DNA of 64,000 nucleotides from Lingula anatina (GCA_051362555.1 CM120646.1:6324001-6388000); one strand, 5' to 3'. Positions 1 through 39,621 are shown, numbered from the stretch's first letter. The notes: generated by a model from the sequence alone, not told the origin. Made by a program: numbers and translations.

Positions 1-1013
1 TCGATACTTTTGAAGCACTCTTTACAGATCTTCTCTTTCCCATGAATTTCTAGGATCAGTTTAACTCGAGCTACGTCACCGATATTTTCGGCGAATATTT
101 TTTGGGAACGGAGGAGTTTCAAGACCATGTGGTGGGCATTTTCTCGAAGCATTTCAAGGAGCCACTGTTCGGCGTGGTGAAGTCTCTGCCCGTACGTAGA
201 CGGGCTAAATTCCTCAATCAATGCCCTGTCTCGCGAAAGATGTAAGATGTACTCTTTAGCGGGTTGGGTTTGTTCAACATTGGGCATGCTGTTATAAAAC
301 AAAGCTGTGGAGATGCGATCGGCGGAACGAGCATCGTAGCAGGTCTCATAATGGGACTTTATAGGTTGCAATGCCGTAGTTTTGCTGATGCATTTTAATC
401 CTACCCACTGGTCTTTCGTGGTTTGCCAGTTGATGCACTTTCCGTCGTACGTGTCATCGCTCACGAAGGCTGCCAGGTACGTGTCCGAGTGCAGCACGTC
501 CTCAAAAGTCCCACACGCGATATCCAGGCCACCCAGAGTCCCCGAAGGCGTCACGTAGCCATGGCACTGATCGTATATATCAGCGCCCGTCGGCCAAATC
601 TGCAAGCGTATTGCCGCCGTGCATATGTTTGCCCGCGCGGCCCCCAAGTGAAGCTTCTTTTCTCCAATCAAGCACAACTTCTGTAGGGAACTGTGAATCT
701 CGGAGGATTGGGGGCTGGCAATGGTGATCACGTCGCTGTCTGTGAGGTACTCCTGCGTGACCAGGGAGGGGGAGTCCGGGGGGCCCGGGGACATAGTTGG
801 CGGCAAAGGGGAAGGGTTCTCCTCACGCTCGGGGCTCGGGGTTGTGGAGGAAGAAGTGGAGCTCCCATTCAGGCTGTGACCCACATGGTCGCGGTGAGAC
901 ATGCCACGGAGTTGGACGTGGTCCCTGTCCCTGTCTCTGTCTCGATGGTGCTTACTGCTGGACCGGTGTCGAGCACGGAACTCTATACCCACATCAGATT
1001 CGCTTCGTGACAT
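1..1013 (-). CDS. Partial CDS (337+ codons, runs off the left edge): putative zinc-dependent cytidine/nucleic-acid deaminase-fold protein with a low-complexity N-terminus
   Basis: Manual translation from the ATG at 1013 is open to position 1: MSRSESDVGIEFRARHRSSSKHHRDRDRDRD...SP/TP-rich...NICTAAIRLQIW...RLHHAEQWLLEML...VKLILEIHGKEKICKECFKSI. HAE is at 176-168 and CKEC at 26-15. A splice acceptor (ttctttctAG|GAA) starts the exon at 1031 and adds EQNEED in frame, so upstream coding exons are possible. GC content is higher than in the flanks. Confidence 0.75.
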   Translation of the reverse strand, partial: MSRSESDVGIEFRARHRSSSKHHRDRDRDRDHVQLRGMSHRDHVGHSLNGSSTSSSTTPSPEREENPSPLPPTMSPGPPDSPSLVTQEYLTDSDVITIASPQSSEIHSSLQKLCLIGEKKLHLGAARANICTAAIRLQIWPTGADIYDQCHGYVTPSGTLGGLDIACGTFEDVLHSDTYLAAFVSDDTYDGKCINWQTTKDQWVGLKCISKTTALQPIKSHYETCYDARSADRISTALFYNSMPNVEQTQPAKEYILHLSRDRALIEEFSPSTYGQRLHHAEQWLLEMLRENAHHMVLKLLRSQKIFAENIGDVARVKLILEIHGKEKICKECFKSI

Positions 1014-2704
1014 ATCCTCTTCGTTTTGTTCCTAGAAAGAATTAAGACACAGTGCGGTCATATTTTATTAACATTTTAAAAATGTAGAAACATTTTTAAA
1101 TGTGGGAACATCAAAATGTCATTGTGGTAGGTTTATATAGGTCAGATAAAAGAAATGAATCCCTGTAGTACGTGACAGTAGGTCAATACTGCACCTAGAC
1201 CCTTAGATAAACTACATGCAAGACCCAAATTCCATAATTTACATAGTCATCCTTGATAACTGAAATGATCGCCTAGATAGACAAGTTGTTGCCAGGATGA
1301 TAAAAACAGACAGATATGCATGTAAAGGAGGCCAAGTAACTGACAGTGAAACACACAAAAATTTCATGATTAAATAGGAACTCATGTATGTAGTTCTACC
1401 TCAGATATGAATGCGATTGATTCTAATGACACTTTAAAGGACCTACCCCAACATAGCTCTACCTACCTCAACTGGGCATAGAATCTCAGCCATGTTGAAA
1501 TGCAATTAAAATATCTTTCAAGCTATACGCTATCGTGCGACAAAATGTCCCTTTCGGTATTGAAAAGCTTGACTTTCTCTTTCTCTCACGAAAGTTTGAC
1601 GATATTGGAATAAGATTGTGACGTTTATAATTATTGCTAAGCCTAAAGACCCATGCAGATTATCGATGCTAGACGGGGGGAGATCTGGGGATTACAGGGG
1701 TTTTCACTTGTTACCAGATAATTAAATGACAATCACATGTTCAAAGTGCGCCAATGTTAGAACTCTGTATATTGTCAACATCAAAACCAACCCAGCGACC
1801 CCTCCTCACATAACCGATGAATTTTATAGATCAAATTATCGCTAAGTCATAGCACAAGGTTTCTGTGGACGACCAGCAAATGCTCATAATTGACTTACAG
1901 AGTGCATTAAACGTGTTGTGACGGTAGTCGGCACAACGATAAATCTGTGTCGAAGGCTTAATGGAAATCAATTAATAGATTTCACTGCACGACTTACAGG
2001 TATTGTTGCATGGGTGAATGGATGGGACTAGTGGGAGGCTCGGTATTACCTTTATTGATACAAAATATATTCCCTTTGTCTATCTTTCGAAAAAAGACCC
2101 CTTCTGATCGAAAACCTGATGATATTATAAACATGCAAGATGTATTTTAGGAGGTGATGAGGGGGGGGGGGGGGGGTGCAGCGATGGCTATTAATTTAAA
2201 AAATCGTACTGTCACGTAAAGTATCCAGGATCGACCCTGCATTATGCCACAACAACAAGAAATAACGAGTCTAAGCTTTGATATTCACGATAACTACTCT
2301 CAAAATGTTTAAAAGGTAATTTGTTAGTTTTTAAGGTTGGGGAAAGAGCATTTGACTTTCAGCATTTTTTACTTTAAATTATTGGTAGTGTATATTTTGT
2401 TCTTTGATAATGAGATTTTTAAAACCTAATCTATTCAGCATCAAATTAAAAAGCGTGAAATATTACACCTTGATTCAATGCCATATCCTGCTGTATAGTC
2501 GATGTTTAGGTGAAAATCTCTTTAGGATTTGCCTTTAACATATTATAGAGTTTATCCATATCCTATAGATTTTGCCCATAACATGTTTAAATACTGCAGT
2601 CAATAAAGATGCAGTACTAGTAGTACATGAGGTTAACATAAAACTTGTTAAAACAGATATAACAATGATATTGTATACCTTAATTTATCCCGTCACAAAA
2701 AAAA

Positions 2705-11823: not shown

Positions 11824-12088
11824 GGGTTCATTAGGAACAGAAGATCCAAGGATGAACTGATCCACGGATCAAATATGGCCGACCCTACATGACAGAAGCA
11901 TCGATTTATCCGCTGATGGTCTCCCTGCCTCCACACAAGCCATTAAACGGATTAAATCAAGGCTCCAGGGTTTAATTGCTAGACTCCTGCAAGGACAGCA
12001 CTTGTGGAAGCAGTAAGACCATCATGTAGGGTCTGCCCTATTTGATCAATGGATCAGAAGATCCTCGGATTTTTTATTCTGAATGGCC
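11824..12088. mobile_element. Palindromic MITE (family D) in the putative desaturase 3' UTR
   Basis: Long imperfect inverted arms (gatccacggatcaaatatggccgaccctacatga ... tcatgtagggtctgccctatttgatcaatggatc). Related copies at ~26399-26608, ~46560-46915, ~48687-49110 and ~58890-59080. Confidence 0.7.
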
Positions 12089-12387: not shown

Positions 12388-13731
12388 TTAATTTGGGTTC
12401 AAACTGAAATGAGTGGACATCTTCTTCAGATGCTGGATGGTTCTTATCACAGCTTCCGACCACGTGCATTCGTCGAACGTAATTCCCAGCTCTTTGCAGA
12501 CATGTTTCACGTGTTTGTTGGCCTTGCGATAATTGTGTCTGGGCATCAAGGGAAAGAGATGATGCTCGATGTGGAAGTTGAGACCGCCATGAAACCAGTC
12601 CATCCAAACAGGATTGACGATGTTGATGTTGGAGATCACTTGCATACGGTACCAGTTTTGTGTTGTACATATGTCATTTTCGAGGTAAAATGGTTTGCAA
12701 TAGTGACTTATAAGCAGTTGGATGTGGAGGACGCCTTCGAAAATAGCTGCCATGCTGTAAAACACAAAGCATTCATACCATGTTGGTAGAAACGAGAGCA
12801 ACAGACATATCCATGTCCAGTGGATCACAAAAGCCACCCATTCCCTCACGTTTTTCTCTTCGCGGAAACTGTCCAGAATGATAGCCACACGGCCAAACAA
12901 AATGCACGTGGGTAAGAAAGTGATGTGCTGGACTTTGATTGCATAGTATTCGAAGAGGCTGTTGTGTAATGGGAAAAGGCGTTCATTTTGAGCAAATATT
13001 GCCTCGTGAGCCTGAGGGTCACTCCATTTGGTCTCTGGGTTGACTGTATTGGTCAGTGCGTGGTGGCTAAAGTGCTCATCTCTCCACCAGCTCCCCGACA
13101 CCCCAAGACACACGGTACCGAAGAAAGTTCCAAGCCAGCGGTCAATCTTGGCCTTATGGAAACCCTGGGTATGCATGAAATCATGCATGAAAAATCCACA
13201 CTGATGCCAAAAAGAGGCAAGAAAAAAGGCCCCTAGGTAGTGTACATACCACTTTTCGCTGGCTATCACGCAGAGAAAGGACAATGCCAGGAGACAGAAA
13301 GTAATGGCAAATTTACCCGCGTACCACAACATGCTGGTTTCAAAATATCCATTTTCAATAAAAAATTTTTGCAGCTGGCGGAATGCTTCTGTTGCTGGGT
13401 CCTCGTCCAGCTCGAAATCTCCTACTGGCTTTCTGTGCTTCAAGACGTCCCTTTCATGAAAACTATGAAACACTGCTGTGGCATCTCGGCCAATGAAATG
13501 TTTGATAATATCCCCACCTGGATGATGGGGGATGAATGTGGTGATGTCATACCATTTCCCATCGATGCCAATAAGTTTTCTTTCACCTTGGTCTTGGTGA
13601 GTCGAGGCTTTACGGTTGACCTGATTGTTGTTTTCACCCACTGATATTGTACGTTGAGATCGTGAGCGTGGTTTGTTGTCTGCCACCTCTGCAGACGTGG
13701 AGGAAGACATTTCCTGCTCTTGTAAAGTCAT
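12388..13731 (-). CDS. Cytochrome b5-fused front-end fatty acid/sphingolipid desaturase (FADS/SLD-like), 447 aa, single coding exon
   Basis: HPGG heme motif, His boxes HDFMH, HFSHH and HIEHH, transmembrane segments and WMDWFHGGLNF. The likely start is MTLQEQ (ATG at 13731), 7 nt after the acceptor ttttttcttcAG (13740-13739). The ORF-track extension to 13797 is intronic. Confidence 0.93.
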   Translation of the reverse strand: MTLQEQEMSSSTSAEVADNKPRSRSQRTISVGENNNQVNRKASTHQDQGERKLIGIDGKWYDITTFIPHHPGGDIIKHFIGRDATAVFHSFHERDVLKHRKPVGDFELDEDPATEAFRQLQKFFIENGYFETSMLWYAGKFAITFCLLALSFLCVIASEKWYVHYLGAFFLASFWHQCGFFMHDFMHTQGFHKAKIDRWLGTFFGTVCLGVSGSWWRDEHFSHHALTNTVNPETKWSDPQAHEAIFAQNERLFPLHNSLFEYYAIKVQHITFLPTCILFGRVAIILDSFREEKNVREWVAFVIHWTWICLLLSFLPTWYECFVFYSMAAIFEGVLHIQLLISHYCKPFYLENDICTTQNWYRMQVISNINIVNPVWMDWFHGGLNFHIEHHLFPLMPRHNYRKANKHVKHVCKELGITFDECTWSEAVIRTIQHLKKMSTHFSLNPN

Positions 13732-23633: not shown

Positions 23634-24551
23634 GAGGCCGATAGGCTCGTACTCCCTTTGCGAAAGCCACCCTCCCCACACGAAGCTCTATTATGCTTGA
23701 GTTCTCAATATCCCTATCCACTTTTCAGATCAAAATGCTTATTTACTGGTGTTTTTGTAGCAGGTCTTCTTAATGATCGTCAATTAAAGGAATAACAACT
23801 GTTCATTTTGGCAAAAAAAAAAAAAAAAAAAATTAATTTTCCTCGGGTAAATGGCAATTTTCCCATACTTACCAATGGTTAATGAATCCATTTCTACATT
23901 CAAAGTTAGTCCATGTTTTTTTCTCTAAATTTTTTTTTCTTCTTTCTTTTTTTTTTTTTTTTGTAATAATCTCTTCAAAGGTTATTGCAGAGTACTGGCA
24001 ACCATGGAGGTCACGTGGTCGGATGGCAAGCACAGATTTCAGATAAATTGCTATAACTACCTGCGATGCTACCTGCAAAGACGTCACGTGCTAGCGTAAG
24101 CTATAGCTAGCGAAAAGAATTGATTGTCCAAGTTGAATTTCTCTTTCATCAGTCTTGAATAATAAAAAAGTTACCAGATTTATCTGATCTCACACAAAAG
24201 ACATTAACTTTCTAAATTATAAATCTTCGTTACTGTCGCGCGCAGCACCATTTTAAGCCTCGGTCACAACCGGACGCACGAATTTTAGGATCGTACGTCC
24301 CCTACGAATTTTGGGTGCAGCGGAGGCCGTGGAGTTCGTAGGGGTAGAGGAAAGTCCGCCTTGCAAGTCGCAAGGGCTTCATGAGTTGTCCTTTCAAGCA
24401 GTGACGCTAATTGCAAGGAGCGATGGCCGTGGAAATTGCACTCACTCCTTGAGTTTGTGTTGCTTCCTGCGTATGTGGCACACACTCACCACTACTCAAC
24501 ACGCAAAGGGCACTTGCTTCTTCATGGCTTGCGCCGTGCGTTTTGCACAAC

Positions 24552-24882
24552 CAGGCCTACCCAACTACCAGACTCGGCACCTAAGGATCCTGAATTAACC
24601 GGTATATCGGACCACACTACCCGTTTTCAAGGTGTGTGTCAGATCGCATTTCGGAGTATCATACCCCAGAGCAAATTTTGTAGCACGACTGCGGGCTCAT
24701 CCACGCTCGGCTGAACAACCTTAAACTGTACTCTTACTTTAGAGTACTCTATTTTATTGTCCCTATGGGGATATATGGGGACTTTGCGACATTCGGTTTG
24801 AATGTTTTAACCACTTTTGATAGGTGTTTTTTTTTTCCACTGTATTAGATTAATGTGGCAGTCTGGTAGTTGGGTAGGCCTG
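24552..24882. mobile_element. hAT-like MITE with a 5-bp TSD, nested in an older inverted-repeat element (~24290-25040)
   Basis: TIR CAGGCCTACCCAACTACCAGACT...AGTCTGGTAGTTGGGTAGGCCTG with TSD ACAAC. Confidence 0.85.
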
Positions 24883-25050
24883 ACAACGCACGTCTCACTT
24901 GCTAACTCCATGCAAGGGGACCAAGTTACGCGTGCGGCCTTGCTGTTCGCAGGCTATTCGTACAATCGTTTGGACATGTACAACATCCTCCGTAGGTGCT
25001 TACGGGCTGTCTGCGAACTCGAATTTTCGTAAGAAGGACCTCAGTGGGAC

Positions 25051-25302
25051 CAGGCCTACCCAATTACCAGACTCGGCACATAAGGACCTTGAATTAACCG
25101 TTATATCGGTCCACACTACCCGTTTTCAAGGTGTGTGTCAGATCGCATTTCGGAGTATCAGTCAGAACACGGACAGGATGAGCCCGCGGTCGCCCTACAA
25201 AATTTGTTCTGGGGTATGATATTCCAAAATGCGATCTGACACACACCTTGAAAACGGGTAGTGTGGTCCGATATAACGGTTAATTCAAGATCCTTATGTG
25301 CC
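25051..25302. mobile_element. Rearranged fold-back derivative of the 24552 element
   Basis: 25051-25160 repeats the left arm of the 24552 element. 25161-25302 is an inverted copy of that arm, giving an ~85-bp stem. Confidence 0.75.
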
Positions 25303-26738: not shown

Positions 26739-28346
26739 ATGAACGAGATGGCAAGTAAAACTGGTATGTCACTGGCTGTATTGTACGTTCTTTTGTTGTG
26801 CTCTTCAACCTCTGACGGTGCAAGAATTCTGTCGCTGGTTTACCCTGGAAGGAGCCAATTAGGCCTTACCGTGACAGTGCTGTCAGAGCTGAAAGGTCGA
26901 GGGCACGACGTTTGGGCGGTGTTTGCGGACACGTTCGAAATATCGCAATCGCTGCTGCAAGAAAGTGAAATTAATCTGCTGACTTTTAGATCAAAGGAGA
27001 AGATGTTTCTGGACGATCCAGAGTTACAGAGGGACATTTACATGGCGGCCGTTGAAAAACCAGAACTACGCAGAAGCCTGTTCCATTTGGCGTCCACTAT
27101 TCAAAAAGCTTCTAGGATATTCGAAAGTTATTTGGAAGAGATGTTTGTGGACAAGGAACTGGACAGAAAGGTCAGGGAGTTGAACTTTGACCTCATGATT
27201 GTTTACGGTTATTGGTTTTTTGCAAAGGCCTACCTCTTCCCTCACCGGTATGCGGTCCCTTACGTGTCCATAGTCCTAGATATGCAGCAGCTTGCTGGTG
27301 TTCCAATGCTGCCTTCATTTGTCCCTAGTCTAGCGATAACTGCCAAGTGCTCCGACAACATGAGTCTTTCTCAGCGAATGCTCAATATCGTTCCTTACGT
27401 TTTACTGAGGCATTCCTTACAACCTATTACGCCGGAACTTTCCCAGAAGCATGCCCCGGGACGCCCTTACATGTCTACGCCAGAGCTGATGGCAGAATCA
27501 GAGTTGTGGATAGTGGACGGAGGCCAGCCCGCCATTGACCACGTCAAACCGTCACTGCCCAACGTCAAGTACCTGGGAGGTCTTATGACGCGACCCGCAA
27601 AGCCACTGCCGAAAGACTTGGAAACTTTTCTAAAAAGGCATGACCACGGCGTGGTTCTTGTATCGTTCGGCTCCCTGGTCAAATACATGCCGGACAGAGT
27701 AGTTCAGGAACTTTTCGAAGCCTTCAAGAACGTGCCTCATGGTGTTATATGGAAGTATAATGGACAACCACTAAAGAATGTCCCGGATCATGTTAAGATT
27801 ATGTCTTGGATGCCACAGAATGATATTTTGGGGCATCCTAACACTAAGCTCTTTATAACACACGCTGGAAACAACGGGCAGATGGAGGCACTATACCACG
27901 GTGTGCCCATGATAAGCATACCTTTGTTCGGTGACCAAGATTACAACGCGGCAAGGGCGGAACAAAAAGGCATTGCAATAACAATGGACCCGGCATTCTT
28001 AAAATCCGAGGATCTTATTTCTGCCATTAATATGATGATGCAAAATGAGACCTATGCCAAGAATATGCGTAGGGCGTCCGCCATTTTCCGCGATCAACCT
28101 GGCACCCCCGTGGAACTGGCAGGTTTTTGGATTGACCACGTGATCAAATATGGCGGTTCCTATATGAAGTCCCATGCAAGATTGCTTCCCTGGTACCAGT
28201 TCTATATGCTTGATGTTATGTTGGTGTTTATAGCAATTATGTTTATGATTTTTTTGTTCTGTGCAGTTTGTTGTTCTTTTGTGTGCAAAAAATTACGTAG
28301 TCATTCAACTTCCGCTGGGAAACAAAATACTAAAAAGACCGAATAG
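26739..28346 (+). CDS. UDP-glycosyltransferase (UGT family, GT1), copy 1, single coding exon
   Basis: Signal peptide, UGT signature WMPQNDILGHPNTKLFITHAGNNGQMEALYHGVPMISIPLFGDQ, C-terminal TM helix and KKTE tail. The start homologous to the paralogs is the ATG at 26748, which has the better Kozak context. Confidence 0.95.
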   Translation: MNEMASKTGMSLAVLYVLLLCSSTSDGARILSLVYPGRSQLGLTVTVLSELKGRGHDVWAVFADTFEISQSLLQESEINLLTFRSKEKMFLDDPELQRDIYMAAVEKPELRRSLFHLASTIQKASRIFESYLEEMFVDKELDRKVRELNFDLMIVYGYWFFAKAYLFPHRYAVPYVSIVLDMQQLAGVPMLPSFVPSLAITAKCSDNMSLSQRMLNIVPYVLLRHSLQPITPELSQKHAPGRPYMSTPELMAESELWIVDGGQPAIDHVKPSLPNVKYLGGLMTRPAKPLPKDLETFLKRHDHGVVLVSFGSLVKYMPDRVVQELFEAFKNVPHGVIWKYNGQPLKNVPDHVKIMSWMPQNDILGHPNTKLFITHAGNNGQMEALYHGVPMISIPLFGDQDYNAARAEQKGIAITMDPAFLKSEDLISAINMMMQNETYAKNMRRASAIFRDQPGTPVELAGFWIDHVIKYGGSYMKSHARLLPWYQFYMLDVMLVFIAIMFMIFLFCAVCCSFVCKKLRSHSTSAGKQNTKKTE

Positions 28347-28596
28347 AGCATAATTTTACTTTGTAACGAAATATATTACCTCTGCATATATTTCAGTATT
28401 TTTTCATTGCGAATGTGTCTAAACAGATAGACTATGTCTTATTTAAACTTCTCAGATAGATTCCCAACCTTTTTCGCCGTTTCTATCTACACTGTAACTT
28501 CAAATTCAATCGTATTTCATGGACGACGTGGCAAGAAAGCATTGTTTAGACTCTCAAAAAAGTTAATTGTTGTTAATTCACATATCAAGAAAGCTA

Positions 28597-28602
28597 AATA
28601 AA
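28597..28602 (+). terminator. Polyadenylation signal AATAAA of UGT copy 1
   Basis: Positionally conserved ~250 bp after each UGT stop (also 32534, 36899 and 39863). Confidence 0.55.
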
Positions 28603-30448
28603 GTGGATATGGAATACCGGTTTGGCATTATCTCTCAGTTTTCATAATTCGGAAGCTGAATATCTGTGATTGTCAAATACACGAAAACGACAAACAGCAT
28701 CCTCTTTTGTGGATGGTGATAGAATGCTAGTATCGACCCTTTATAAATCAATTTCTCAAAATTAGTGATTGACGCTTGATGCCTACCAATGGTGTGCATG
28801 TTCCATTTTTCCCTTGTGACGTCACAATTTACTTTTGACTTCCTCGCATTCGTCGGTGTGGCAACCGCCGGAAATGAATAATTAAATGATTTATTGAGTA
28901 TGTAAAATTTTTATCCTGTCCATGATCTCAATTCTGTCTGCAGCTACATGGGTATTAAAAAATTACTATAGAAAATTGTTCAAATTCTCAAAATGGCATG
29001 TACTTTCAGTAATAAAATCAGACTAGTAAATTGTCATTAGAGCTGTCTTTCAGCTCCCTTTCTCAAAGACAAATACAATGACCACACCTTGTGGGGAACC
29101 CCCTTAGACCATCCCGGGCCCCACATTACATTAAATAACACTTATTAATATTAAAATCCCAGGGTTTGGGCACAATGGGCTGTTCTTGGGATAACGCTAT
29201 CTGCAATACTGCTACAGAGATTCCCAGGTTCCTTGTCTTAAACTCTTCACACGGAAAAGAATGAAACTACATGTTGTAACTTCAACAGAATAATATTTCT
29301 TTGCTACACTAACAGTTACATGGTACAAGCCTCTCTCTCCTCCTCTCTCTCTTCTATCCAGTCTCAATTCTACATCTTCCTCTCCTCCCTTCTCTCCTCT
29401 ATCCAGTCATTTCTACATCTCACTCCTCCCTAGGTTTAAGTTCCCAGATTTTTTATACTAAACTTTATCTACTAAATTGTCAATCACAAAACTTAAAAAC
29501 TGATTGGTTACTTCATACGCAAGTCCACCCCTTCCTGGTGGTCACTGTTAATAAATCCCTGTAATCAAGTTCTAACAAATTACCGGCTTCGAAACAAAGG
29601 ACATTAAAATTTGAACTGCAAGGTGTGAAGTACATGTTTTATCTAAAGCTACTTATACAACATGGCTTCTCATGTATGAATTTTATGAAACAATGGCTTC
29701 CTCTGATTGAGTTAATACTACACCAAGTATGCAAGTTTTAAAGGTACTAATTACACTTTTTTTTATACTGTGGTTCCTGACAACCTGTGAAGGTCATATC
29801 TGTTTTAGTTCTATTTGCTACAATGACACCAACTGATAAGATCACTTTCTTCCAATTAAACCACCTCAAGGGGCTCTATGATTGTTTGAAGATCGAGGTA
29901 AGTTCTGTTCAATCGCTGTCAGTGGACAGATTCATCCGATAACAAAGACATTGCAACTTCTTACCTGAAAAACAATCAGAACTGCAGCTCATATAATTAC
30001 AGTGTAAGAGAGGTGCATTTCAATCGCTTATAAAATCGGCATCAATACTAGAAAAGGTCCTTGATGGCCATTTCCTGGCACTATATACCTATGCTGATAT
30101 AATTAAACAGTTGTCAAGTTTAATTATCAACCGGTGTGAGAGATACAGACGATCAAAGTTGATCATTTTAACATTGGGAGTAATGGAGCTTACGGATTGG
30201 TTTACCCTAGTCCGGGCATGGCGGCCATCTTGTGACGTCATGCCGACTGTAAGAATAGGGGTGAAGGTGTCGAAACTAGCACACTTAGAGACTGCATGAA
30301 CAAAGGAAGTCGACCCATATGCGTCCTTGTACTGTACAAACATAGAGCGCACATAACTAAAAGTGGAGTCAGAGGGAGCATGATATATTTGTCATCTTTC
30401 TGTTCTCGGGATATCTCGACTTATCATGGAAGTTACCAAGGGCACTTT

Positions 30449-30536
30449 TGGGCCCCGTAACTCGATGGCATCGCGCATTGCGACCGATCGCAGGCGTCTC
30501 CATTCCATAACTAGCCCATACTCGCGTCATATAATA
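30449..30536 (+). promoter_or_regulatory. ~70-bp MITE followed by a TATA-like TATAATA upstream of UGT copy 2
   Basis: The same arrangement occurs at 34810-34897 and 37775-37862. The 70-bp element also occurs alone, inverted, at 62891-62961. Confidence 0.45.
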
Positions 30537-30675
30537 CATTTAGGGGAACTGACGGAAGCCAAAATATAGGACAGTCTGGGTCATAGATATAGGTTCTCTT
30601 ACAGACTGTTGTCAACACGTTATATTCTTCTGTCGGCTCGGTTATTTATACTTGTCTATGTCATAAAGGAACGAG

Positions 30676-32274
30676 ATGACGAGTAAAACTGGTATGTCAC
30701 TGGCTGTATTGTACGTTCTTTTGTTGTGCTCTTCAACCTCTGACGGTGCAAGAATTCTGTCGCTGGTTTACCCTGGAAAGAGCCAGTTAGGCCTAACCGT
30801 GACAGTGCTGTCAGAGCTGAAAAGTCGAGGGCACGACGTTTGGGCAGTGTTTGCGGACACGTTCGAAATATCGGCCTCGATGTTGCGAGAAAGCGGAATT
30901 AATCTGCTGACTTTTAGATCTAAGGAGAAAATGTTTCTGGACGATCCGGAGGTACAGAGAGATATTTTAATGGCGGCCGTTGAAAACCCAGAACTACGCA
31001 CAAGCCTGTTTCATATAACGTCCGCTATTCAAAAATTGTCTAGGATATTCGAAAGTTATTTAGAAGAGATGTTTGTGGACAAGGAACTGGACAGAAAGGT
31101 CAGTGAGTTAAACTTTGACCTCATGATTGTAAGCGGTTATTGGTTTTTTGCAAAAGCCTATCTCTTCCCTCACCGGTATGCCGTTCCTTACGTGTCAATA
31201 GTCCTAGATATGCAGCAGCTTGCTGGTGTTCCAATGCTGCCTTCATTTGTCCCTAGTCTAGCGATAACTGCCAAGTGCTCCGACAACATGAGTCTTTCTC
31301 AACGAATTCTAAACGTTCTTCCTTACCTTTTCCTGAAGCATTCCTTACAACCTATTACGCCGGAACTTTCCCAGAAGCATGCCCCGGGACGCCCTTACAT
31401 GTCTACGCCAGAGCTGATGGCAGAATCAGAGTTGTGGATAGTGAACGGAGGCCAGCCCGCCATTGACCACGTCAAACCGTCACTGCCCAACGTCAAGTAC
31501 CTGGGAGGTCTCATGACGCGACCCGCAAAGCCACTGCCTAAAGACTTGGAAACTTTTCTTAAAAAGCATGGCCACGGCGTGGCTCTTGTATCGTTCGGCT
31601 CCGTGATCAAATACATGCCGGACAGAGTAGTTCAGGAACTTCTCGAAGCCTTCAAGAACGTGCCTTATGGCGTTATATGGAAGTATAATGGGCCGCCGTT
31701 AAAGAATGTCCCGGATCATGTTAAGATTGTGTCTTGGATGCCACAGAATGATATTTTGGGTCATCCTAACACTAAGCTCTTTATAACACACGCTGGAAAC
31801 AACGGGCAGATGGAGGCACTATACCACGGTGTGCCCATGATAAGCATACCTTTGTTCGGTGACCAAGATTACAACGCGGCAAGGGCGGAACAAAAAGGCA
31901 TCGCAATAACAATGGACGCGGCATTCTTAAAATCCGAGGATCTTATTTCTGCTATTAATATGATGATGGAAAATGAGACCTATGCCAAGAATATGCGCAG
32001 GGCGTCCGCCATTTTTCGCGATCAACCCGGCACCCCAGTGGAACTGGCAGGTTTCTGGATTGACCACGTGATCAAATATGGCGGTTCCTATATGAAGTCC
32101 CATGCAAGACTGCTTCCCTGGTACCAGTTCTATATGCTTGATGTTATGTTGGTTTTTTTAGCAATGATTTTATTAATTTGTTTGTTCTGTGGAGTTTGTT
32201 GTTCGTTTGTTTGCAAAAAATTACGTGGCCAGTCAACTTCAGCTGGGAAACAAAAGACCCAAAAGACCGAATAG
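30676..32274 (+). CDS. UDP-glycosyltransferase copy 2, 532 aa
   Basis: Intact ORF with the UGT signature, TM helix and lysine-rich tail; close paralog of copy 1. Confidence 0.95.
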   Translation: MTSKTGMSLAVLYVLLLCSSTSDGARILSLVYPGKSQLGLTVTVLSELKSRGHDVWAVFADTFEISASMLRESGINLLTFRSKEKMFLDDPEVQRDILMAAVENPELRTSLFHITSAIQKLSRIFESYLEEMFVDKELDRKVSELNFDLMIVSGYWFFAKAYLFPHRYAVPYVSIVLDMQQLAGVPMLPSFVPSLAITAKCSDNMSLSQRILNVLPYLFLKHSLQPITPELSQKHAPGRPYMSTPELMAESELWIVNGGQPAIDHVKPSLPNVKYLGGLMTRPAKPLPKDLETFLKKHGHGVALVSFGSVIKYMPDRVVQELLEAFKNVPYGVIWKYNGPPLKNVPDHVKIVSWMPQNDILGHPNTKLFITHAGNNGQMEALYHGVPMISIPLFGDQDYNAARAEQKGIAITMDAAFLKSEDLISAINMMMENETYAKNMRRASAIFRDQPGTPVELAGFWIDHVIKYGGSYMKSHARLLPWYQFYMLDVMLVFLAMILLICLFCGVCCSFVCKKLRGQSTSAGKQKTQKTE

Positions 32275-35057
32275 AGCATAATTTTTACTTTGTAACAAAA
32301 TTCAGTATATTACCTCTGCGTATATTTCAGTATTTTTTTCATTGCGAATGTGTCTAAAGAGATAGACTCTGTTTTATTTAAACTCTTCAGATAGATTCCC
32401 AATCTTTTTCGCCGTTTCTATTTACACTGTAACTTCAATTTCCATCGTTTTTCATGGACGACGTGGCAAGAAAGCATTGTTTAGACTCTCAAAAAAGTAA
32501 CTTGTTGTTAATTCATACATATCAAGAAAGCTAAATAAAATGGATGTGGACAACCAGTTTGGACCATGATATTATCTCCCAGTTTTCATAATTCGGAAGC
32601 CGAATGGCTGTTTTGATCTTATCGGGTTACATTGCTTGAACAGTAAATATATTTATTGTCAAAGACACGAAAACGACAAACAGTATCCTCTTTCGTGGAT
32701 GAGGATAGAATGGTAGTATTGTCCCTTTATAAATTTATTTATTAAAATTCGTGATGACGCTTGGTGCCTACCAATACTGTTCATGACGCATTTTTCCCTT
32801 GTGACGTCACAATTCACTTTTATATGCAGTATTGATCATCATTATAGTCTGACCATTTTGAGTGATACTGAAATTGATATAGACTATCTTTCAGATCCAC
32901 AAAACTCGCAAACGACACAATCTGCACGAGCAATGTGATATGAGTCCATCGCCTTGGTAACTAGACAGAATTTGATTGACTTTTTGCAATAAAACTTTTA
33001 ATACTCTCTCTCTCTCTTTCTCTCTCCAAAAACCAAAATTAAAAATTTGAGGTTAATGCAGAAGATTATTATAATCCAAAATTTGTTTTATTTTTCAGGA
33101 GAAAAAACATTGTTTGTAGACAAATGTCCGAAATTTATGAAACAGAATCGGACGTACCTACCTTAAGCTTGATATTGACGAGATTAACTTTGTGACTGTG
33201 ACTTTGATGAGCCACGTGCAATATTTTGCGGTCTATTAATTTCTTAGATAGAAATATTTGGTTCGCTGGACTGCACCAGTCAAGAACTCACTTCGTCTCT
33301 ACTCGTTGCAAGTCCGCAGTAGGATTTCACTGACTGTTTTTTTTTATTCCATTCAGTTTATTCTTTATGATACCATAAAACCAGGCAAAAGTTATGTAAA
33401 TTATCGGACCACTTGAACCTTCATAGATGGTTACATGTAATAATATTTTCTTCTGTAGAGATTGCACGCTTAAAAAAAGAAATGATCGATCTACTTTAAA
33501 TATGGGAATTAACGACGTTTATCTCAACAAAAGTCCGTTTCCCGCCAAAATGAAAAGCTGTTTTCTATTTAAGCAACATTGATCAACCAAACCAAATAGT
33601 ACGACAAAAAACTGACTATTACATAGGGTTGTAAAGTGAAATGAAACGCTCATCACGTACGTTAACCGGTCAATTTCAGGAGTTTACACAAGTACTCATC
33701 AGAAAATTGGAAATGTCCAATTTCTCTTCTCTCAACGCGTTGTTTGCCGTTGTACTGCACTAAAGTCTAGCACAGTGCTTCATATGACACTGTACTACGC
33801 CATGAATACGCTTCACTATTCTGGTACGTATATCTAATTATTATTAAAATAAAAATAATTATTGAATAATTTAAAAAAAACTCATGGGTTCTTCCTGCCT
33901 TTCTCTTTAATTGCATCTGTATGTTATTGGGTATTGTGTTTGTGTGGAAAAGCCCCCTGTTGTTGTTGCGGTTGTTGTAGCCCTACGATTTGTCTGAACA
34001 TTTCTTTTCCGGAATCTTCGTGCAATACTTTTGTCCCCCATTTGTATATACCAATATCTTATGTAACTAACAATGGATAAGTTTAACGATAGTGACCAGC
34101 ATTCAGTGTGGTGAATGTGTTAGCTGTGCCCTCACAGCTCACCAAATGCTGATCTCCTACGGTACCCCTTATTCAACCGGTCGAGATTCGACGCGTGGTG
34201 AGTCGTGTGAGAGGCGGAGAGACCATTTCAGGATTAAGCGGTCTTTCTTTCATGTAGGTCCGCCATTTTTAGATCGCGACCTAGCTAGCACTCGGCTCTT
34301 CTCGATCTGAATGGTGCCTCAGTGATCGAAAACCCTCGCAATTTTGAGTTAACGTCTATGCATTGAAAAGGAAAAAAAAATATTGATATGTGCGATAGTC
34401 CGACGGGGACCCAAGCGACAGCATAACAGTTTTAGTTCTTTGGGGAGTTTTCACTTTAGAATAAAACAAAAAAAATATCATCAATACTTCACCTACCAAA
34501 CATTTCATGCTTGTGGACGTTTGTGGCCGTTTGTGGTAGTTAATTAGATCTAACTTCATCATAGCCATGTTTCAGTTAGAGACATTACGTGATGCTATAT
34601 TCAGATACAACACTGATAGGGGTGAAGGTGGTGAAACTAGCACACTTAGAGACTGCATGAACAAAGGAAGATGACCCGTATGCCTCCTTGTACTGTACCA
34701 ACAAATAGCGTACGTAACTAAAAGTGGAGTCAGAGGGAGTATGATATCTTTGTCATCTTTCCGTTCTCGGGATTTCTCGACTTATCATGGAAGTTACCAA
34801 GGGCACTTCTGGGCCCCGTAACTCGATAGCATCACGCATTGCGACCATTCGCAGGCGTCTCCATTCCTTAAATCGCCCATACTCGCCCCATATAATACAT
34901 TTAGGGGGCCTGATCGGCTATATCACGTAACTGACGGTAGCCAAAATATAGGACAGCCTGGGTCATAGATCTAGGTTCTCTTGCAGACTGTTGTCAACAC
35001 GTTATATTCTTCTGTCGGCTCGGTTATTTATAGTTGTCTATGTCATAAAGGAACGAG

Positions 35058-36656
35058 ATGGCGAGCAAAGCTGTTTTGTCACTGGCTGTATTGTACGTTC
35101 TTTTGTTGCGTTCTTCAACCTCTGACGGTGGAAGGATTTTGTCGCTGGTTTACCCTGGTAAGAGCCTGTTAAGCCTTACCGTGACAGTGCTGACAGAACT
35201 GAAAAGTCGAGGGCACGACGTTTGGGCGGTGTATGCGGACACGTTCGAAATATCGGCCTCGATGTTGCGAGAAAGCGGTATTAATCTGCTGACTTTTACA
35301 TCTAAGGAGAAAATGTTTCTGGACGATCCGGAGGTACAGAGAGATATTTTAATGGCGGCCGTTGAAAACCCAGAACTACGCACAAGCCTTTTTCATTTAA
35401 CGTCCACTATTCAAAAATTTACTAGTATATTCGAAAGTTATTTGGAAGAGATGTTTGTGGACAAGGAACTGGACAGAAAGGTCAGGGAGTTGAAATTTGA
35501 CCTCATGATTGTTTGCGGTTATTGGTTTTTTGCAAAAGCCTACCTCTTCCCTCACCGGTATGCGGTTCCTTACGTGTCCATAGTCCTAGATATGCAGCAG
35601 CTTGCTGGTGTACCAATGCTTCCTTCATTTGTCCCTAGTCTAGCGATAACTGCCAAGTACTCCGACAAAATGAGTCTTCCTCAGCGAATGCTCAACATCG
35701 TTCCTTACGTCTTACTGAAGCATTCCATACAACCTATTTCGCCGGAACTTTCCAAGAAGCATGCCCCGGGGCGCCCTTACATGTCTACGCCAGAACTGAT
35801 GGCAGAATCAGAGTTGTGGATAGTGGACGGAGGCCAGCCCGCCATTGACCACGTCAAACCGTCACTGCCCAACGTCAAGTACCTGGGAGGTCTTGTGACG
35901 CGACCCGCAAAGCCACTGCCGAAAGACTTGGAGACTTTTCTCAAAAAACATGACCACGGCGTGGTTCTTGTGTCGTTCGGCTCCCTGGTCAAATACATGC
36001 CGGACAGAGTAGTTCAGGAACTTTTCGAAGCCTTCAAGAACGTGCCTTATGGTGTTATATGGAAGTATAATGGGCAGCCGCTAAATAATGTCCCGGGTCA
36101 TGTCAAGATTATGTCTTGGATGCCACAGAATGATATTTTGGGGCATCCTAACACTAAGCTCTTTATAACACACGCTGGAAACAACGGGCAGATGGAGGCA
36201 CTATACCACGGTGTGCCCATGATAAGCATACCTTTGTTCGGTGACCAAGATTACAACGCGGCAAGGGCGGAACAAAAAGGCATCGCAATAACAATGGACG
36301 CGGCATTCTTAAAATCCGAGAATCTTATTTCAGCCATTAATATGATGATGCAAAATGAGACCTACGCCAAGAATATGCGTAGGGCGTCCGCCATTTTCCG
36401 CGATCAACCTGGCACCCCCGTGGAACTGGCAGGTTTCTGGATTGACCACGTAATCAATTATGGCGGTTCCTATATGAAGTCCCATGCAAGACTACTTCCC
36501 TGGTACCAGTTCTATATGCTTGATGTTATGTTGGTGTTTTTAGCAATTATTTTATTGATTTGTTTGTTCTTTGGAGTTTGTTGTTCCTTTGTGTGCAAAA
36601 AATTACGTAGTCAGTCAACTTCCGCTGGGAAACAAAAGACCAAAAAGACCGAATAG
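35058..36656 (+). CDS. UDP-glycosyltransferase copy 3, 532 aa
   Basis: Intact ORF with the UGT signature, TM helix and KKTE tail. Confidence 0.95.
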   Translation: MASKAVLSLAVLYVLLLRSSTSDGGRILSLVYPGKSLLSLTVTVLTELKSRGHDVWAVYADTFEISASMLRESGINLLTFTSKEKMFLDDPEVQRDILMAAVENPELRTSLFHLTSTIQKFTSIFESYLEEMFVDKELDRKVRELKFDLMIVCGYWFFAKAYLFPHRYAVPYVSIVLDMQQLAGVPMLPSFVPSLAITAKYSDKMSLPQRMLNIVPYVLLKHSIQPISPELSKKHAPGRPYMSTPELMAESELWIVDGGQPAIDHVKPSLPNVKYLGGLVTRPAKPLPKDLETFLKKHDHGVVLVSFGSLVKYMPDRVVQELFEAFKNVPYGVIWKYNGQPLNNVPGHVKIMSWMPQNDILGHPNTKLFITHAGNNGQMEALYHGVPMISIPLFGDQDYNAARAEQKGIAITMDAAFLKSENLISAINMMMQNETYAKNMRRASAIFRDQPGTPVELAGFWIDHVINYGGSYMKSHARLLPWYQFYMLDVMLVFLAIILLICLFFGVCCSFVCKKLRSQSTSAGKQKTKKTE

Positions 36657-38022
36657 AGCATAATTTTTTACTTGTGACGAAATATATTACCTCTGCATAT
36701 ATTTCAGTTTTTTTTTCATGGCGAATGTGTCTAAAGAGATAGACTATGTTTTATTTACACTTCTCAGATAGATTCCCATTCTTTTTCGCCGTTTCTATGT
36801 ACACTGTAACTTCAAATTTCATGGACGATGTGGCAAGAAAGCGTTGATGAGACTCTCAATAAAGGTACTTGTTGTTAATTCATATATCAAGAAAGCTAAA
36901 TAAAATGGATGTGGAAAACCAGTTTGGTATTATCTCTCAGTTTTCATAATTCGTGCTGAAAGTCTGTTTTGATCTCATCGGTTAACGCTTGGTGCCTACC
37001 AATGGTGTTCATGACGCGTTTTCCCTTGTGACGTCACAATATACTTTTGTTGTATTCCTCGCAATCATCGGTGTGGCAACCGCCGGAAATGAATGTGATT
37101 GGTATGACAAGAGGCTATTGGTATTATTTTATAATTTGTTATGCTTGTGGATTACTGTAGTCTACGTACCCCTTATTCAACCGGTCGAGATTCGACGCGT
37201 GGTGAGTCGTGTGAGAGGCGGAGAGACCATTTCAGGATTAAGCGGTCTTTCTTTCATGTAGGTCCGCCATTTTTAGATCGCGACCTAGCTAGCACTCGGC
37301 TCTTCTCGATCTGAATGGTGCCTAAGTGATCGAAAACCCTCGCAATTTTGAGTTAACGTCTACGCATTGAAAAGGAAAAAACATTGATATGTGCGATAGT
37401 GCGACGAGGACCCAAGCGACAGCATAACAGTTTTAGTTCTTTCGGGAGTTTTCATTTTAGAATAAAACAAAAAAAATATCATCAATACTTCACATACCAA
37501 CCATTTCATGCTTGTGGACGTTTGTGGCCGTTTGTGGTAGTAAATTAGATCTAACTTCATCATAGCCATGTTTCAGTTAGAGACATTACGTGATGCTATA
37601 TTCAGATACAACACTGATAGGGGTGAAGGTGGCAAATGGTGCCTCCTTGTACATGTACTGTACTAACATATTGCGTACGTAACTGAAAGTGGAGTCAGAG
37701 GGGGCATGATATCTTTGTCATCTTTCCGTTCTCGGGATTTCTCGACTTATCATGGAAGTTACCAAGGGCACTTATGGGCCCCGTAACTCGATAGCATCGC
37801 GCATTGCGACCGATCGCAGGCGTCTCCGTTCCTTAAATCGCCCATACTCGCCCCATATAATACATTTGGGGGCCCTGATCGGCTATATTACGTAACTGAC
37901 GGAAGCCAAAATATAGCACAGCCTGGGTCATAAATCTTGGTTCTCTTGCAGACTGTTGGCAATTCGTTATATTCATCTGTCGGCCCGGTTATTTATAGTT
38001 GTCTATGTCATAAAGGAACGAG

Positions 38023-39621
38023 ATGGCGAGCAAAGCTGTTTTGTCACTGGCTGTATTGTACGTTCTTTTGTTGCGTTCTTCAACCTCTGACGGTGCAAGA
38101 ATTTTGTCGCTGGTTTACCCTGGGAAAAGCCTGTTAGGCCTTACCGTGACAGTGCTGACAGAACTGAAAAGTCGAGGGCACGAAGTTTGGGCGGTGTATG
38201 CGGACACGTTCGAAATATCGGCCTCGGTGTTGCGAGAAAGTGGTATTAATCTGCTGACTTTTAGATCTAAGGAGAAAATGTTTCTGGACGATCCGGAGGT
38301 ACAGAGAGATATTTTAATGGCGGCAGTTGAAAACCCAGAACTACGCACAAGCCTGTTTCAATTAACGTCCACTATTCAAAAACTTTCTAAGATATTCGAA
38401 AGTTATTTGGAAGAGATGTTTGTGGACAAAGAACTACACAGGAAGGTCATCGAGTTGAAATTTGACCTTATGATTGTTTACGGTTATTGGTTTTTTGCAA
38501 AAGCCTACCTCTTCCCTCACCGGTATGCGGTCCCCTACGTGTCCATAGTCCTAGATATGCAGCAGCTTGCTGGTGTACCAATGCTTCCTTCATTTGTCCC
38601 TAGTCTAGCGATAACTGCCAAGTGCTCCGACAACATGAGTCTTTCTCAGCGAATGCTCAATATCGTTCCTTACGTTTTACTGAGGCATTCCTTACAACCT
38701 ATTACGCCGGAACTTTCCAAGAAGCATGCCCCGGGGCGCTCGTACATGTCTACGCCAGAGCTGATGGCAGAATCAGAGTTGTGGATAGTGGACGGAGGCC
38801 AGCCCGCCATTGACCACGTCAAACCGTCACTGCCCAACGTCAAGTACCTGGGAGGTCTTATGACGCGACCCGCAAAACCACTGCCGAAAGACTTGGAAAC
38901 TTTTCTTAAAAAGCATGGCCACGGCGTAGTTCTTGTGTCGTTCGGCTCACTGATCAAATACATGCCGGACAGAGTAGTTCAGGAACTTTTCGAAGCCTTC
39001 AAGAACGTGCCTTATGGTGTTATATGGAAGTATAATGGGCAGCCGCTAAATAATGTCCCGGATCATGTTAAGATTATGTCTTGGATGCCACAGAATGATA
39101 TTTTGGGGCATCCTAACACTAAGCTCTTTATAACACACGCTGGAAACAACGGGCAGATGGAGGCACTATACCACGGTGTGCCCATGATAAGCATACCTTT
39201 GTTCGGTGACCAAGATTACAACGCGGCAAGGGCGGAACAAAAAGGCATTGCAATAACAATGGACGCGGCATTCTTAAAATCCGAGAATCTTATTTCTGCC
39301 ATTAATATGATGATGCAAAACGAGACCTATGCCAAGAACATGCGTAGAGCGTCCGCCATTTTTCGCGATCAACCCGGCACCCCCGTGGAACTGGCAGGTT
39401 TCTGGATTGACCACGTGATCAAACATGGCGGTTCCTATATGAAGTCCCATGCAAGACTGCTTCCCTGGTACCAGTTCTATATGCTTGACGTTATGTTGGT
39501 GTTTTTAGCAATTATTTTATTGATTTGTTTGTTCTTTGGAGTTTGTTGTTCCTTTGTGTGCAAAAAATTGCGTAGTCAGTCAACTTCCGCTGGGAAACAA
39601 AAGACCCAAAAGACCGAATAA
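38023..39621 (+). CDS. UDP-glycosyltransferase copy 4, 532 aa
   Basis: Intact ORF with the UGT signature, TM helix and lysine-rich tail. Confidence 0.95.
   Translation: MASKAVLSLAVLYVLLLRSSTSDGARILSLVYPGKSLLGLTVTVLTELKSRGHEVWAVYADTFEISASVLRESGINLLTFRSKEKMFLDDPEVQRDILMAAVENPELRTSLFQLTSTIQKLSKIFESYLEEMFVDKELHRKVIELKFDLMIVYGYWFFAKAYLFPHRYAVPYVSIVLDMQQLAGVPMLPSFVPSLAITAKCSDNMSLSQRMLNIVPYVLLRHSLQPITPELSKKHAPGRSYMSTPELMAESELWIVDGGQPAIDHVKPSLPNVKYLGGLMTRPAKPLPKDLETFLKKHGHGVVLVSFGSLIKYMPDRVVQELFEAFKNVPYGVIWKYNGQPLNNVPDHVKIMSWMPQNDILGHPNTKLFITHAGNNGQMEALYHGVPMISIPLFGDQDYNAARAEQKGIAITMDAAFLKSENLISAINMMMQNETYAKNMRRASAIFRDQPGTPVELAGFWIDHVIKHGGSYMKSHARLLPWYQFYMLDVMLVFLAIILLICLFFGVCCSFVCKKLRSQSTSAGKQKTQKTE

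What the first reader, a model, noticed from the sequence alone, without database searches (positions are those of the whole stretch)
1..1031. Hidden >1 kb exon encoding an atypical zinc-dependent deaminase-like protein
Seen: the minus-strand frame is open from 1031 off the window edge and is not in the ORF track. It ends ...QRLHHAEQWLLEML-x-VKLILEIHGKEKICKECFKSI, i.e. H-A-E-x47-C-x2-C with a hydrophobic strand before the CxxC. Established: HxE...CxxC is the Zn/catalytic signature of the cytidine deaminase superfamily (AID/APOBEC, TadA, DYW, toxin deaminases), and AID/APOBEC spacing is about half this long with SPC before the cysteines. Inference: the long helical insert, the LEIHG strand and the missing Pro fit none of the standard animal enzymes. 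From memory they look more like toxin-type deaminases of intracellular bacteria. The domain is fused to a eukaryote-like disordered N-terminus (HRSSSK, RDRDRDRD, many SP/TP sites). This could be an undescribed invertebrate DNA/RNA editor or antiviral effector, possibly horizontally acquired.
Basis: partly seen in the sequence, partly recalled or inferred. Interest (0 to 1): 0.8.

Follow-up and report, generated by a model that had tools for sequence, protein, structure and literature searches.

The report
Orphan brachiopod gene with deaminase-like site
An animal genome, likely a lamp shell's, holds an intact 343-codon reading frame with mostly silent natural variation and no relative found in our searches; it likely encodes a zinc enzyme that would edit DNA or RNA bases, but the odds are only about even because the fold is unproven and the gene's end lies outside the window.

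Summary
The minus-strand frame 1031 to 3 is open for 343 codons, starts at an AG acceptor, and carries H286-A-E288-x47-C336-x2-C339. Six of 8 variants listed in one laid DNA run are silent (P 0.002-0.007), so it is likely a real coding exon. No relative was found by any sequence, family or DNA search. The deaminase reading is about even. For it: all four ligands are in order, and the flanks fit two toxin-derived deaminase clades (PF14424, OTT_1508); 130 of 300,000 shuffles match on either profile and 1 on both. Against it: whole-domain profiles score nothing, the TadA profile scores it at random level, and an AlphaFold model guided by a deaminase alignment matched no deaminase. The CxxC could instead begin a zinc finger that is cut off by the window edge. 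It is not a member of any family tested. Horizontal transfer is unsupported, and long spacers already occur in some cnidarian and algal AID/APOBEC-like enzymes.

The parts
1..1031 (-). Open coding exon, 343 codons, running off the left edge of the window; the C-terminus is missing
   Evidence: 6 of 8 listed variants silent
1032..1046 (-). Predicted splice acceptor: pyrimidine tract and AG; its TAG is the stop that bounds the frame
   Evidence: Sequence; splicing not shown by RNA
1011..1013 (-). First in-frame ATG (Met7), a possible start if the upstream exon is non-coding
   Evidence: the neighbouring desaturase also has an acceptor-like site a few bases before an ATG; inference
720..1031 (-). 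Low-complexity N-terminal region, aa 1-104: basic patch, RD repeats (nt 977-921), Ser/Pro-rich stretch; likely disordered and possibly nuclear-targeting
   Evidence: Sequence; no Cys, 5 S/T-P sites; function inferred
189..719 (-). Middle region, aa 105-281, Cys/His-rich, fold unknown; would supply helix 1 and strands 1-2 if this is a deaminase
   Evidence: No family or homolog; MAFFT places aa 238-245 on strand 1 of PF14424, a forced global alignment
621..695 (-). Possible degenerate second module, H113 to C137, lacking the Glu and the second Cys
   Evidence: OTT-type two-block score 16.6, reached by 23 of 1,500 shuffles; direct half-against-half alignment gives z near 0; weak
168..176 (-). 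H286-A-E288: predicted Zn ligand and catalytic Glu at the start of a helix
   Evidence: flank ranks
72..146 (-). Extra helical stretch (about aa 296-320) that makes the spacer 47 residues
   Evidence: 18-residue insertion against PF14424; modelled as one helix, aa 284-317, at pLDDT 65-81 in an alignment-biased model
30..65 (-). Predicted strand 3 and G-x-x-K loop (V323-K334)
   Evidence: Strand modelled at aa 325-329; G-x-x-K lies one residue closer to the Cys than in the OTT-type set fetched
15..26 (-). C336-K-E-C339: predicted Zn ligands, or the first half of a zinc finger cut by the window edge
   Evidence: the continuation could not be fetched

Best explanation
This is an intact protein-coding exon with mostly silent variation, whose product likely folds as a zinc-dependent nucleic-acid deaminase of an unplaced clade. 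Shown: the open frame, the acceptor-like site, the ligand set and the excess of silent variants. Inferred mechanism: His286, Cys336 and Cys339 would bind one Zn, and Glu288 would shuttle the proton for hydrolytic deamination of a flipped-out base. The G-x-x-K loop would line the pocket. The roughly 18 extra residues would lengthen helix 2 and offer a basic face (K305, R308, K311) to the nucleic acid. The basic, RD-repeat, Ser/Pro-rich N-terminus would place it in the nucleus. The most likely chemistry is C-to-U on a polynucleotide, by analogy with toxin deaminases and AID/APOBEC-like enzymes; A-to-I is possible, as for fungal OTT_1508-like OLD enzymes. A role against viruses or mobile elements is a guess by analogy.
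For: All four ligands are present and in order. With ligands excluded from the score, the helix after HAE on a 97-sequence PF14424 matrix outranks 1,698 of 1,700 Glu sites and 46 of 46 HxE sites in 138 control ORFs (motif-bearing ORFs removed), and the CxxC flank outranks 13 of 13. On a 56-window OTT-type matrix, 21 of 1,700 Glu sites reach it. Of 300,000 shuffles, 8,149 carry the motif; 26 reach ours on PF14424, 105 on OTT, 130 on either and 1 on both. Our flank scores lie where true deaminases score on foreign profiles: 73 of 97 PF14424 sequences score at or below ours on OTT, and 57 of 64 OTT sequences at or below ours on PF14424. In 397 unfiltered ORFs, 34 scored above ours on the OTT two-block scan; 33 carry TadA/CDA-type HAE..PCxxC sites, and the best reversed ORF scored 17.3 against our 23.8. 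Arg at His-3 (81 of 97 PF14424), Leu-Leu at Glu+3/+4 and an aliphatic residue at Cys2+4 all match. MAFFT put R/H/E and both Cys in register without seeding. Silent variants: 6 of 8.
Against: No Pfam, PHROG, NCBIfam or PADLOC family was matched, at E up to 1-10. No deaminase appeared among PDB sequence hits. Whole-domain tests are negative: PF14424 HMM -2 bits; OTT HMM 3.3 bits, reached by 28 of 400 motif-fixed decoys; hhalign probability under 1%, reached by 54 of 150 and 36 of 150 decoys. On the TadA matrix ours is at random level (z 0.17) and below all 161 OTT and PF14424 sequences. AlphaFold given a 39-row PF14424 alignment reached mean pLDDT 53, left aa 222-280 under 50, and matched no deaminase in the listed rows (best VIA Z 4.1). 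The two-block OTT score is reached by 63 of 40,000 shuffles. On the PF14424 two-block scan at least 4 of 397 reversed ORFs reach ours, and one locus picked as a weak OTT hit (L092, no deaminase evident) scored 38.3. I chose the two clades by eye after seeing the sequence, and a genome-wide scan would meet some such matches by chance. The spacer of 47 lies outside the 27-34 of PF14424.
Confidence: 0.5

Rival explanations
1. An orphan nuclear protein in which HAE and CxxC co-occur by chance. The CxxC begins a structural zinc finger (C2H2-like) whose second half lies beyond the window edge, and the protein would bind DNA or proteins rather than deaminate.
For: The bare motif arises in 2.6% of shuffles. 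The last 14 residues read like a linker plus the first half of a C2H2 finger, with Lys at Cys2+2 and Ser at +3 (consensus recalled, from no call). Disordered Ser/Pro-rich N-termini are typical of nuclear regulators (general knowledge). The negative profile and fold results fit.
Against: Cys2+4 is Ile, as in 31 of 64 OTT and 26 of 97 PF14424 sequences, not the Phe usual in C2H2 fingers, and there is no aromatic residue two before the first Cys (recalled consensus). No Pfam or PDB hit for the last 20-64 residues, though half a finger may be undetectable. It leaves the helix-2 fit unexplained.
Confidence: 0.33
2. A sub-case of the best explanation: a very divergent AID/APOBEC-like deaminase (AAD), nearest the APOBEC4/cnidaria-algae clade, inherited within animals.
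For: Lingula has several AADs (PMC5889660, PMC5956068 passages). By eye, the Emiliania row of Fig. S1 has a similar helix-2 start, a spacer of about 55 and short likenesses to aa 142-155. Bird APOBEC1 rows also begin helix 2 similarly.
Against: 33 of the 34 Fig. S1 rows I saw have Pro directly before the first Cys (counted by eye); ours has Ile. The clade's NC motif and extra Zn site (Table S1) are not evident. No APOBEC Pfam hit. These sequences could not be scored here.
Confidence: 0.12
3. A gene of a mobile element or virus, or a recent bacterial insertion, that has acquired an animal N-terminus.
For: One long exon, GC 0.53 against 0.35 in the upstream non-coding DNA, and CpG o/e 0.92. GC3 drops from 121 of 165 (aa 34-198) to 76 of 145 (aa 199-343), p 1.5e-4, which may mark a chimera.
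Against: No relative in viral, metagenome, genome, plasmid or phage collections. No second copy in the window and no terminal repeats evident near it. The neighbouring UGT exons have similar CpG o/e (0.83-0.94). Ten DNA runs from four studies hold part or all of it, one of them a possible source (only X2 laid).
Confidence: 0.08
4. Residues 290-340 are two degenerate ankyrin repeats.
For: phmmer matched the designed ankyrin protein 4GMR at E 0.006 with a 79-residue query.
Against: That E-value sums several repeats; the best single stretch has i-E 20. Own ankyrin HMMs (29 units, 7 pairs) give at most 0.7 bits, reached by 19-28 of 400 decoys. The TPLH helix is absent and scores are far below the family minimum.
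Confidence: 0.04

Closest known systems
BURPS668_1122 / Toxin-deaminase clade (Pfam PF14424; PMC3239186 Table 1, passages read)
   Same: Arg three before the first ligand, hydrophobic pair at Glu+3/+4, mostly no Pro before CxxC, similar strand-3 pattern.
   Different: His, not Asp, as first ligand (Asp in 97 of 97); Trp, not Lys, at Glu+2; spacer 47 against 27-34; flank score 1.6 against a family minimum of 31.7; no HMM match; no secretion modules in the part seen.
OTT_1508-like deaminases (PF14441), including Trichoplax members and the Neurospora OLD-1/2 antiviral A-to-I editors (PMC3239186, PMC12754623; passages read)
   Same: HAE, a G-x-x-K before CxxC, mostly no Pro, aliphatic Cys2+4; eukaryotic and animal members exist.
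   Different: G-x-x-K is one residue closer to the Cys than in the set fetched (whose register my pattern imposed); flank score -7.3 against a family minimum of 7.1; no PF14441 hit.
AID/APOBEC-like deaminases, including Lingula LaAIDL1/2 and the APOBEC4/cnidaria-algae clade (PMC5889660 passages and supplement parts 1-6 of 50; PMC5956068 passages)
   Same: HxE..CxxC, similar helix-2 start, long helix-2 inserts in a few members, probably the same host lineage.
   Different: No S-P-C; spacer outside H[AVS]E-x24-36-PCxxC; no APOBEC Pfam hit; none of the Lingula rows I saw resembles it.
TadA/Tad2
   Same: HAE and CxxC.
   Different: Flanks score at random level on a 30-sequence TadA matrix; Pro before the Cys in 30 of 30 TadA.

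Membership tests
Deaminase superfamily (CDA fold) | HxE/CxE/DxE and CxnC Zn ligands in order | tested here: met
   H286, E288, C336, C339
Deaminase superfamily (CDA fold) | Helix 2, strand 3, helix 3 between and after the ligands | tested here: inconclusive
   Modelled so at pLDDT 65-81, but with a deaminase alignment supplied; the single-sequence model had pLDDT 34
Deaminase superfamily (CDA fold) | Five-stranded 2-1-3-4-5 sheet with the ligands around one Zn | tested here: inconclusive
   No deaminase among the listed Foldseek or VIA rows; the model is half low-confidence and the domain is cut by the window edge; no positive control
Deaminase superfamily (CDA fold) | Ligands conserved across orthologs | not testable with these tools
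   No homolog found
Deaminase superfamily (CDA fold) | Deaminase activity | not testable with these tools
   Needs an assay
AID/APOBEC-like (AAD) | S-P-C before the cysteines and a spacer of 24-36 plus Pro | tested here: not met
   K-I-C and spacer 47; motif from PMC5956068
AID/APOBEC-like (AAD) | Strand-4/loop-7 aromatic residue and extra C-terminal helices | not testable with these tools
   Beyond the window edge
BURPS668_1122 / PF14424 | RxxDxExK in helix 2 | tested here: not met
   R-x-x-H-x-E-x-W: Arg and Glu met, Asp and Lys not
BURPS668_1122 / PF14424 | Profile match over the domain | tested here: not met
   HMM -2 bits; hhalign probability under 1%
OTT_1508-like / PF14441 | GxxK before CxxC | tested here: inconclusive
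   G331-K-E-K334 is present but one residue closer than in the fetched set, whose register was fixed by my pattern
OTT_1508-like / PF14441 | Profile match | tested here: not met
   No PF14441 hit; own HMM 1.9-3.3 bits, not above decoys
OTT_1508-like / PF14441 | Strand-4 to helix-4 loop with His and axxP | not testable with these tools
   Beyond the window edge
TadA/Tad2 | TLEPCxMC-type strand 3 and loop | tested here: not met
   Random-level score
C2H2 zinc finger | CxxC followed by the His pair | not testable with these tools
   Only four residues after Cys339 lie in the window
Ankyrin repeat | TPLH helix and 33-residue period | tested here: not met

The most novel reading that the evidence does not exclude
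A new clade of polynucleotide deaminase in a brachiopod, unrelated in sequence to its AID/APOBEC, ADAR or Tad enzymes. It would have been domesticated long ago from a toxin-type ancestor, lengthened by a basic helix after the catalytic Glu, possibly preceded by a dead duplicate module, and fitted with a nuclear RD/SP tail. It would be a separate animal route to base editing and a fresh scaffold for base editors.
Probability: 0.3. Interest if true: 0.72.

Novelty: new variant of a known kind. Interest (0 to 1): 0.42.

Why it matters
Known animal nucleic-acid deaminases are chiefly AID/APOBEC-like, ADAR and Tad enzymes, with a sporadic OTT_1508-like report from Trichoplax (PMC3239186, passages). 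An active enzyme that no sequence or family search recognises would show that such clades are being missed in under-sampled invertebrates. It would give a testable candidate editor or defence factor and widen the pool of base-editor scaffolds. If the zinc-finger rival is right, it is an orphan gene of modest interest.

Tried and rejected
Homolog searches. phmmer on 1.84 billion representatives gave one hit, P0002, a CysS_C repeat protein whose score sums 7 stretches; rejected. The word-indexed search found none among near-length (847 candidates) or longer (1,350 candidates) proteins; shorter ones were not searched that way. Viral, metagenome, genome, plasmid and phage collections gave none. 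The ESM Atlas could not read the sequence. A run on a PF14424 protein (P0077) speaks only of that protein and was not used.

RNA. No RNA holder was listed. Zero reads were laid from X12, X15 and X18 (about 6, 6 and 25% of each run read), with no positive control, so this is no evidence on expression or splicing. Only window 1-2140 was laid, so upstream exons were not tested.

Extension. The two loose ends in X2 end at GATC sites and read as GATC-GATC junctions, probably proximity-ligation chimeras, so they do not extend the gene. No genome is held for the window.

Structure. The single-sequence model (pLDDT 34) was not searched. The alignment-guided model gave no match at E 0.001 in PDB or BFVD, and a best VIA Z of 4.1.

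Other tests. Internal duplication by pairwise alignment: z near 0. Of 8 pairwise comparisons with PF14424 members, one reached z 3.5 (5 of 1,000 shuffles) and seven did not. An AAC(3)-IVa hit (E 0.08-0.6) was treated as chance. PF14428 was not found in 201 genomes, PF14441 not over cut-off in 301, and PF18774 was found once in 301, so those clades were not profiled from genomes. None of 6 neighbouring proteins was found by exact look-up, so I could not test whether this genome's proteins are in the collection. No Rfam or tRNA hit in the window.

Literature. Searches showed no description of this gene. The Iyer 2011 supplement could not be read and the Krishnan supplement was cut and read only in part; either could hold a closer clade.

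Full report
Observation. The minus-strand frame from 1031 to 3 is open for 343 codons, while the other five frames hold 5-16 stops each. None of 5,000 base shuffles yields an ORF of 300 codons. The bounding TAG is the AG of a pyrimidine-rich acceptor, and the first ATG is codon 7. H-A-E starts at residue 286 (nt 176) and C-K-E-C at 336, with 47 residues between Glu and Cys. The frame leaves the window four residues after Cys339, so the end of the protein is unseen, and no genome is held for this window.

Context. The neighbours are an intronless cytochrome-b5/fatty-acid desaturase and four tandem UDP-glycosyltransferases, in 38% GC DNA with microsatellites. Earlier AI notes on this genome call it the brachiopod Lingula; I did not verify this. 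Ten DNA runs of one organism from four studies hold part or all of the stretch, one a possible source.

It is likely a real gene. Contigs of run X2, the only DNA run laid, list 8 differences inside the frame and 3 just upstream. Six of the 8 are silent; the others are F313C and S8L. Random changes would be silent 22% of the time (34% for transitions), giving P 0.002-0.007. Caveats: this is one run; one contig has a fifth difference that was not listed; and the two Cys codons were not covered. Three RNA runs gave no reads but had no positive control, so they say nothing.

No relatives found. Pfam, PHROGs, NCBIfam, PADLOC and PDB sequences give no family. phmmer over 1.84 billion representatives gives one spurious repeat protein. 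Near-length and longer protein searches, and five DNA collections, give none.

Testing the motif. The bare motif is cheap: 2.6% of shuffles have it. I therefore fetched three deaminase sets and scored the flanks with the ligands left out. PF14424: 120 proteins listed of 131, 101 kept with a near-full domain, 97 with the motif. OTT_1508-type: 119 pattern matches, 80 listed and examined, 64 in frame; 9 of 10 checked are PF14441. The pattern fixed their G-V-S-K register and limited their spacer, so neither describes the family. TadA: 30 sequences.

Results for. On PF14424, the helix after HAE outranks 1,698 of 1,700 Glu sites in control ORFs and the CxxC flank outranks 13 of 13. With the motif fixed, 5 of 2,000 shuffles match the helix, 359 of 2,000 the Cys flank and 12 of 2,000 the sum. 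On OTT, 21 of 1,700 Glu sites reach ours. Of 300,000 shuffles, 8,149 carry the motif, 130 reach ours on either profile and 1 on both; our scores lie where true deaminases fall on foreign profiles. Of 397 unfiltered ORFs, 34 beat ours on an OTT two-block scan, and 33 of them carry TadA/CDA-type sites. The missing Pro is normal in these clades.

Results against. On TadA ours scores at random level, below all 161 OTT and PF14424 sequences. Its scores are far below the minimum of either family. HMMs and hhalign over the whole domain do not beat decoys. The OTT two-block score is reached by 63 of 40,000 shuffles. On the PF14424 version at least 4 of 397 reversed ORFs reach ours, and one OTT-selected locus without an evident deaminase scored far higher than ours. 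I picked the two clades after seeing the sequence, and real helices and strands beat shuffles, so these p-values flatter the case.

Structure. Alone, aa 105-343 gave pLDDT 34. With 38 PF14424 rows, aa 222-343 gave mean pLDDT 53: a long helix at 284-317, a strand at 325-329 and a helix from 337 at pLDDT 65-81, with the first 59 residues under 50. It matched no deaminase in the listed rows. The domain is truncated and there was no positive control, so this is inconclusive; but it failed under conditions that favoured the hypothesis.

Rivals. The last 14 residues also read like the start of a C2H2 finger (recalled consensus); the deciding half lies outside the window. An ankyrin hint failed direct tests. 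AID/APOBEC membership fails on S-P-C: 33 of the 34 Fig. S1 rows I saw have the Pro. Yet that figure shows spacers of about 37, 40 and 55 (by eye), so a long spacer is not unprecedented. Horizontal transfer has no direct support: there is no bacterial relative, and CpG content is like that of the UGT exons. GC3 does differ between the two halves of the exon (p 1.5e-4), which is unexplained. A possible dead upstream module at H113-C137 is weak (23 of 1,500 shuffles; no pairwise self-similarity).

Mechanism. If it is a deaminase, His286, Cys336 and Cys339 would hold Zn and Glu288 would activate water (established for the superfamily; PMC5889660 passage). The long basic helix would help grip the nucleic acid, and the RD/SP tail would place it in the nucleus (both inferred). 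Toxin deaminases DddA, SsdA and DddB and Lingula LaAIDL1 act on cytosine in DNA, while fungal OTT_1508-like OLD enzymes edit A-to-I in mRNA during antiviral defence. I take C-to-U as more likely, but the substrate is untested.

Papers seen. PMC5889660: passages, supplement parts 1-6 of 50 and search hits (file cut). PMC3239186, PMC5956068, PMC12754623, PMC13346905 and PMC8195603: passages only; the last was not relevant, and the PMC3239186 supplement was unavailable. Other papers: search listings only. Seven searches showed no account of this gene.

Verdict. A real orphan coding exon. Deaminase fold about 0.5, zinc finger or chance motif 0.33, mobile or viral origin 0.08, ankyrin 0.04. It works like a toxin-type deaminase if it works as one at all, but it is not a member of any family tested. 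Interest 0.42; 0.72 if the novel case (probability 0.3) holds.

Noticed in passing
window 26739-39621, + strand: Four tandem intronless UDP-glycosyltransferase ORFs of about 531 aa, 91-95% identical to each other.
   Followed up: partly
window 12388-13731, - strand: Intronless cytochrome-b5/fatty-acid desaturase (447 aa) with an acceptor-like site a few bases before an ATG, the same layout as the exon studied.
   Followed up: partly
window 3-932, - strand: GC3 falls from 0.73 (aa 34-198) to 0.52 (aa 199-343), p 1.5e-4; neighbouring genes have 0.51-0.53. Possibly a chimeric exon.
   Followed up: partly
window 27 and 1259-1270: Loose ends of run X2 end at GATC sites with GATC-GATC junctions, probably proximity-ligation chimeras rather than real sequence.
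   Followed up: yes
window 11829-12085: Inverted repeat with 64-nt arms, 80% complementary, 129 nt apart, just downstream of the desaturase; MITE-like or a 3' UTR hairpin.
   Followed up: no
window 24385-25219: Two short frames share a near-identical peptide stretch, which suggests a local duplication or mobile-element remnant.
   Followed up: no
Atlas result for P0077 (not in the window): Mostly eukaryotic clusters (few with taxa, ciliate where known), some with FAST/RESC-type families, match a PF14424 model at TM about 0.75, under the bar for naming a family.
   Followed up: no
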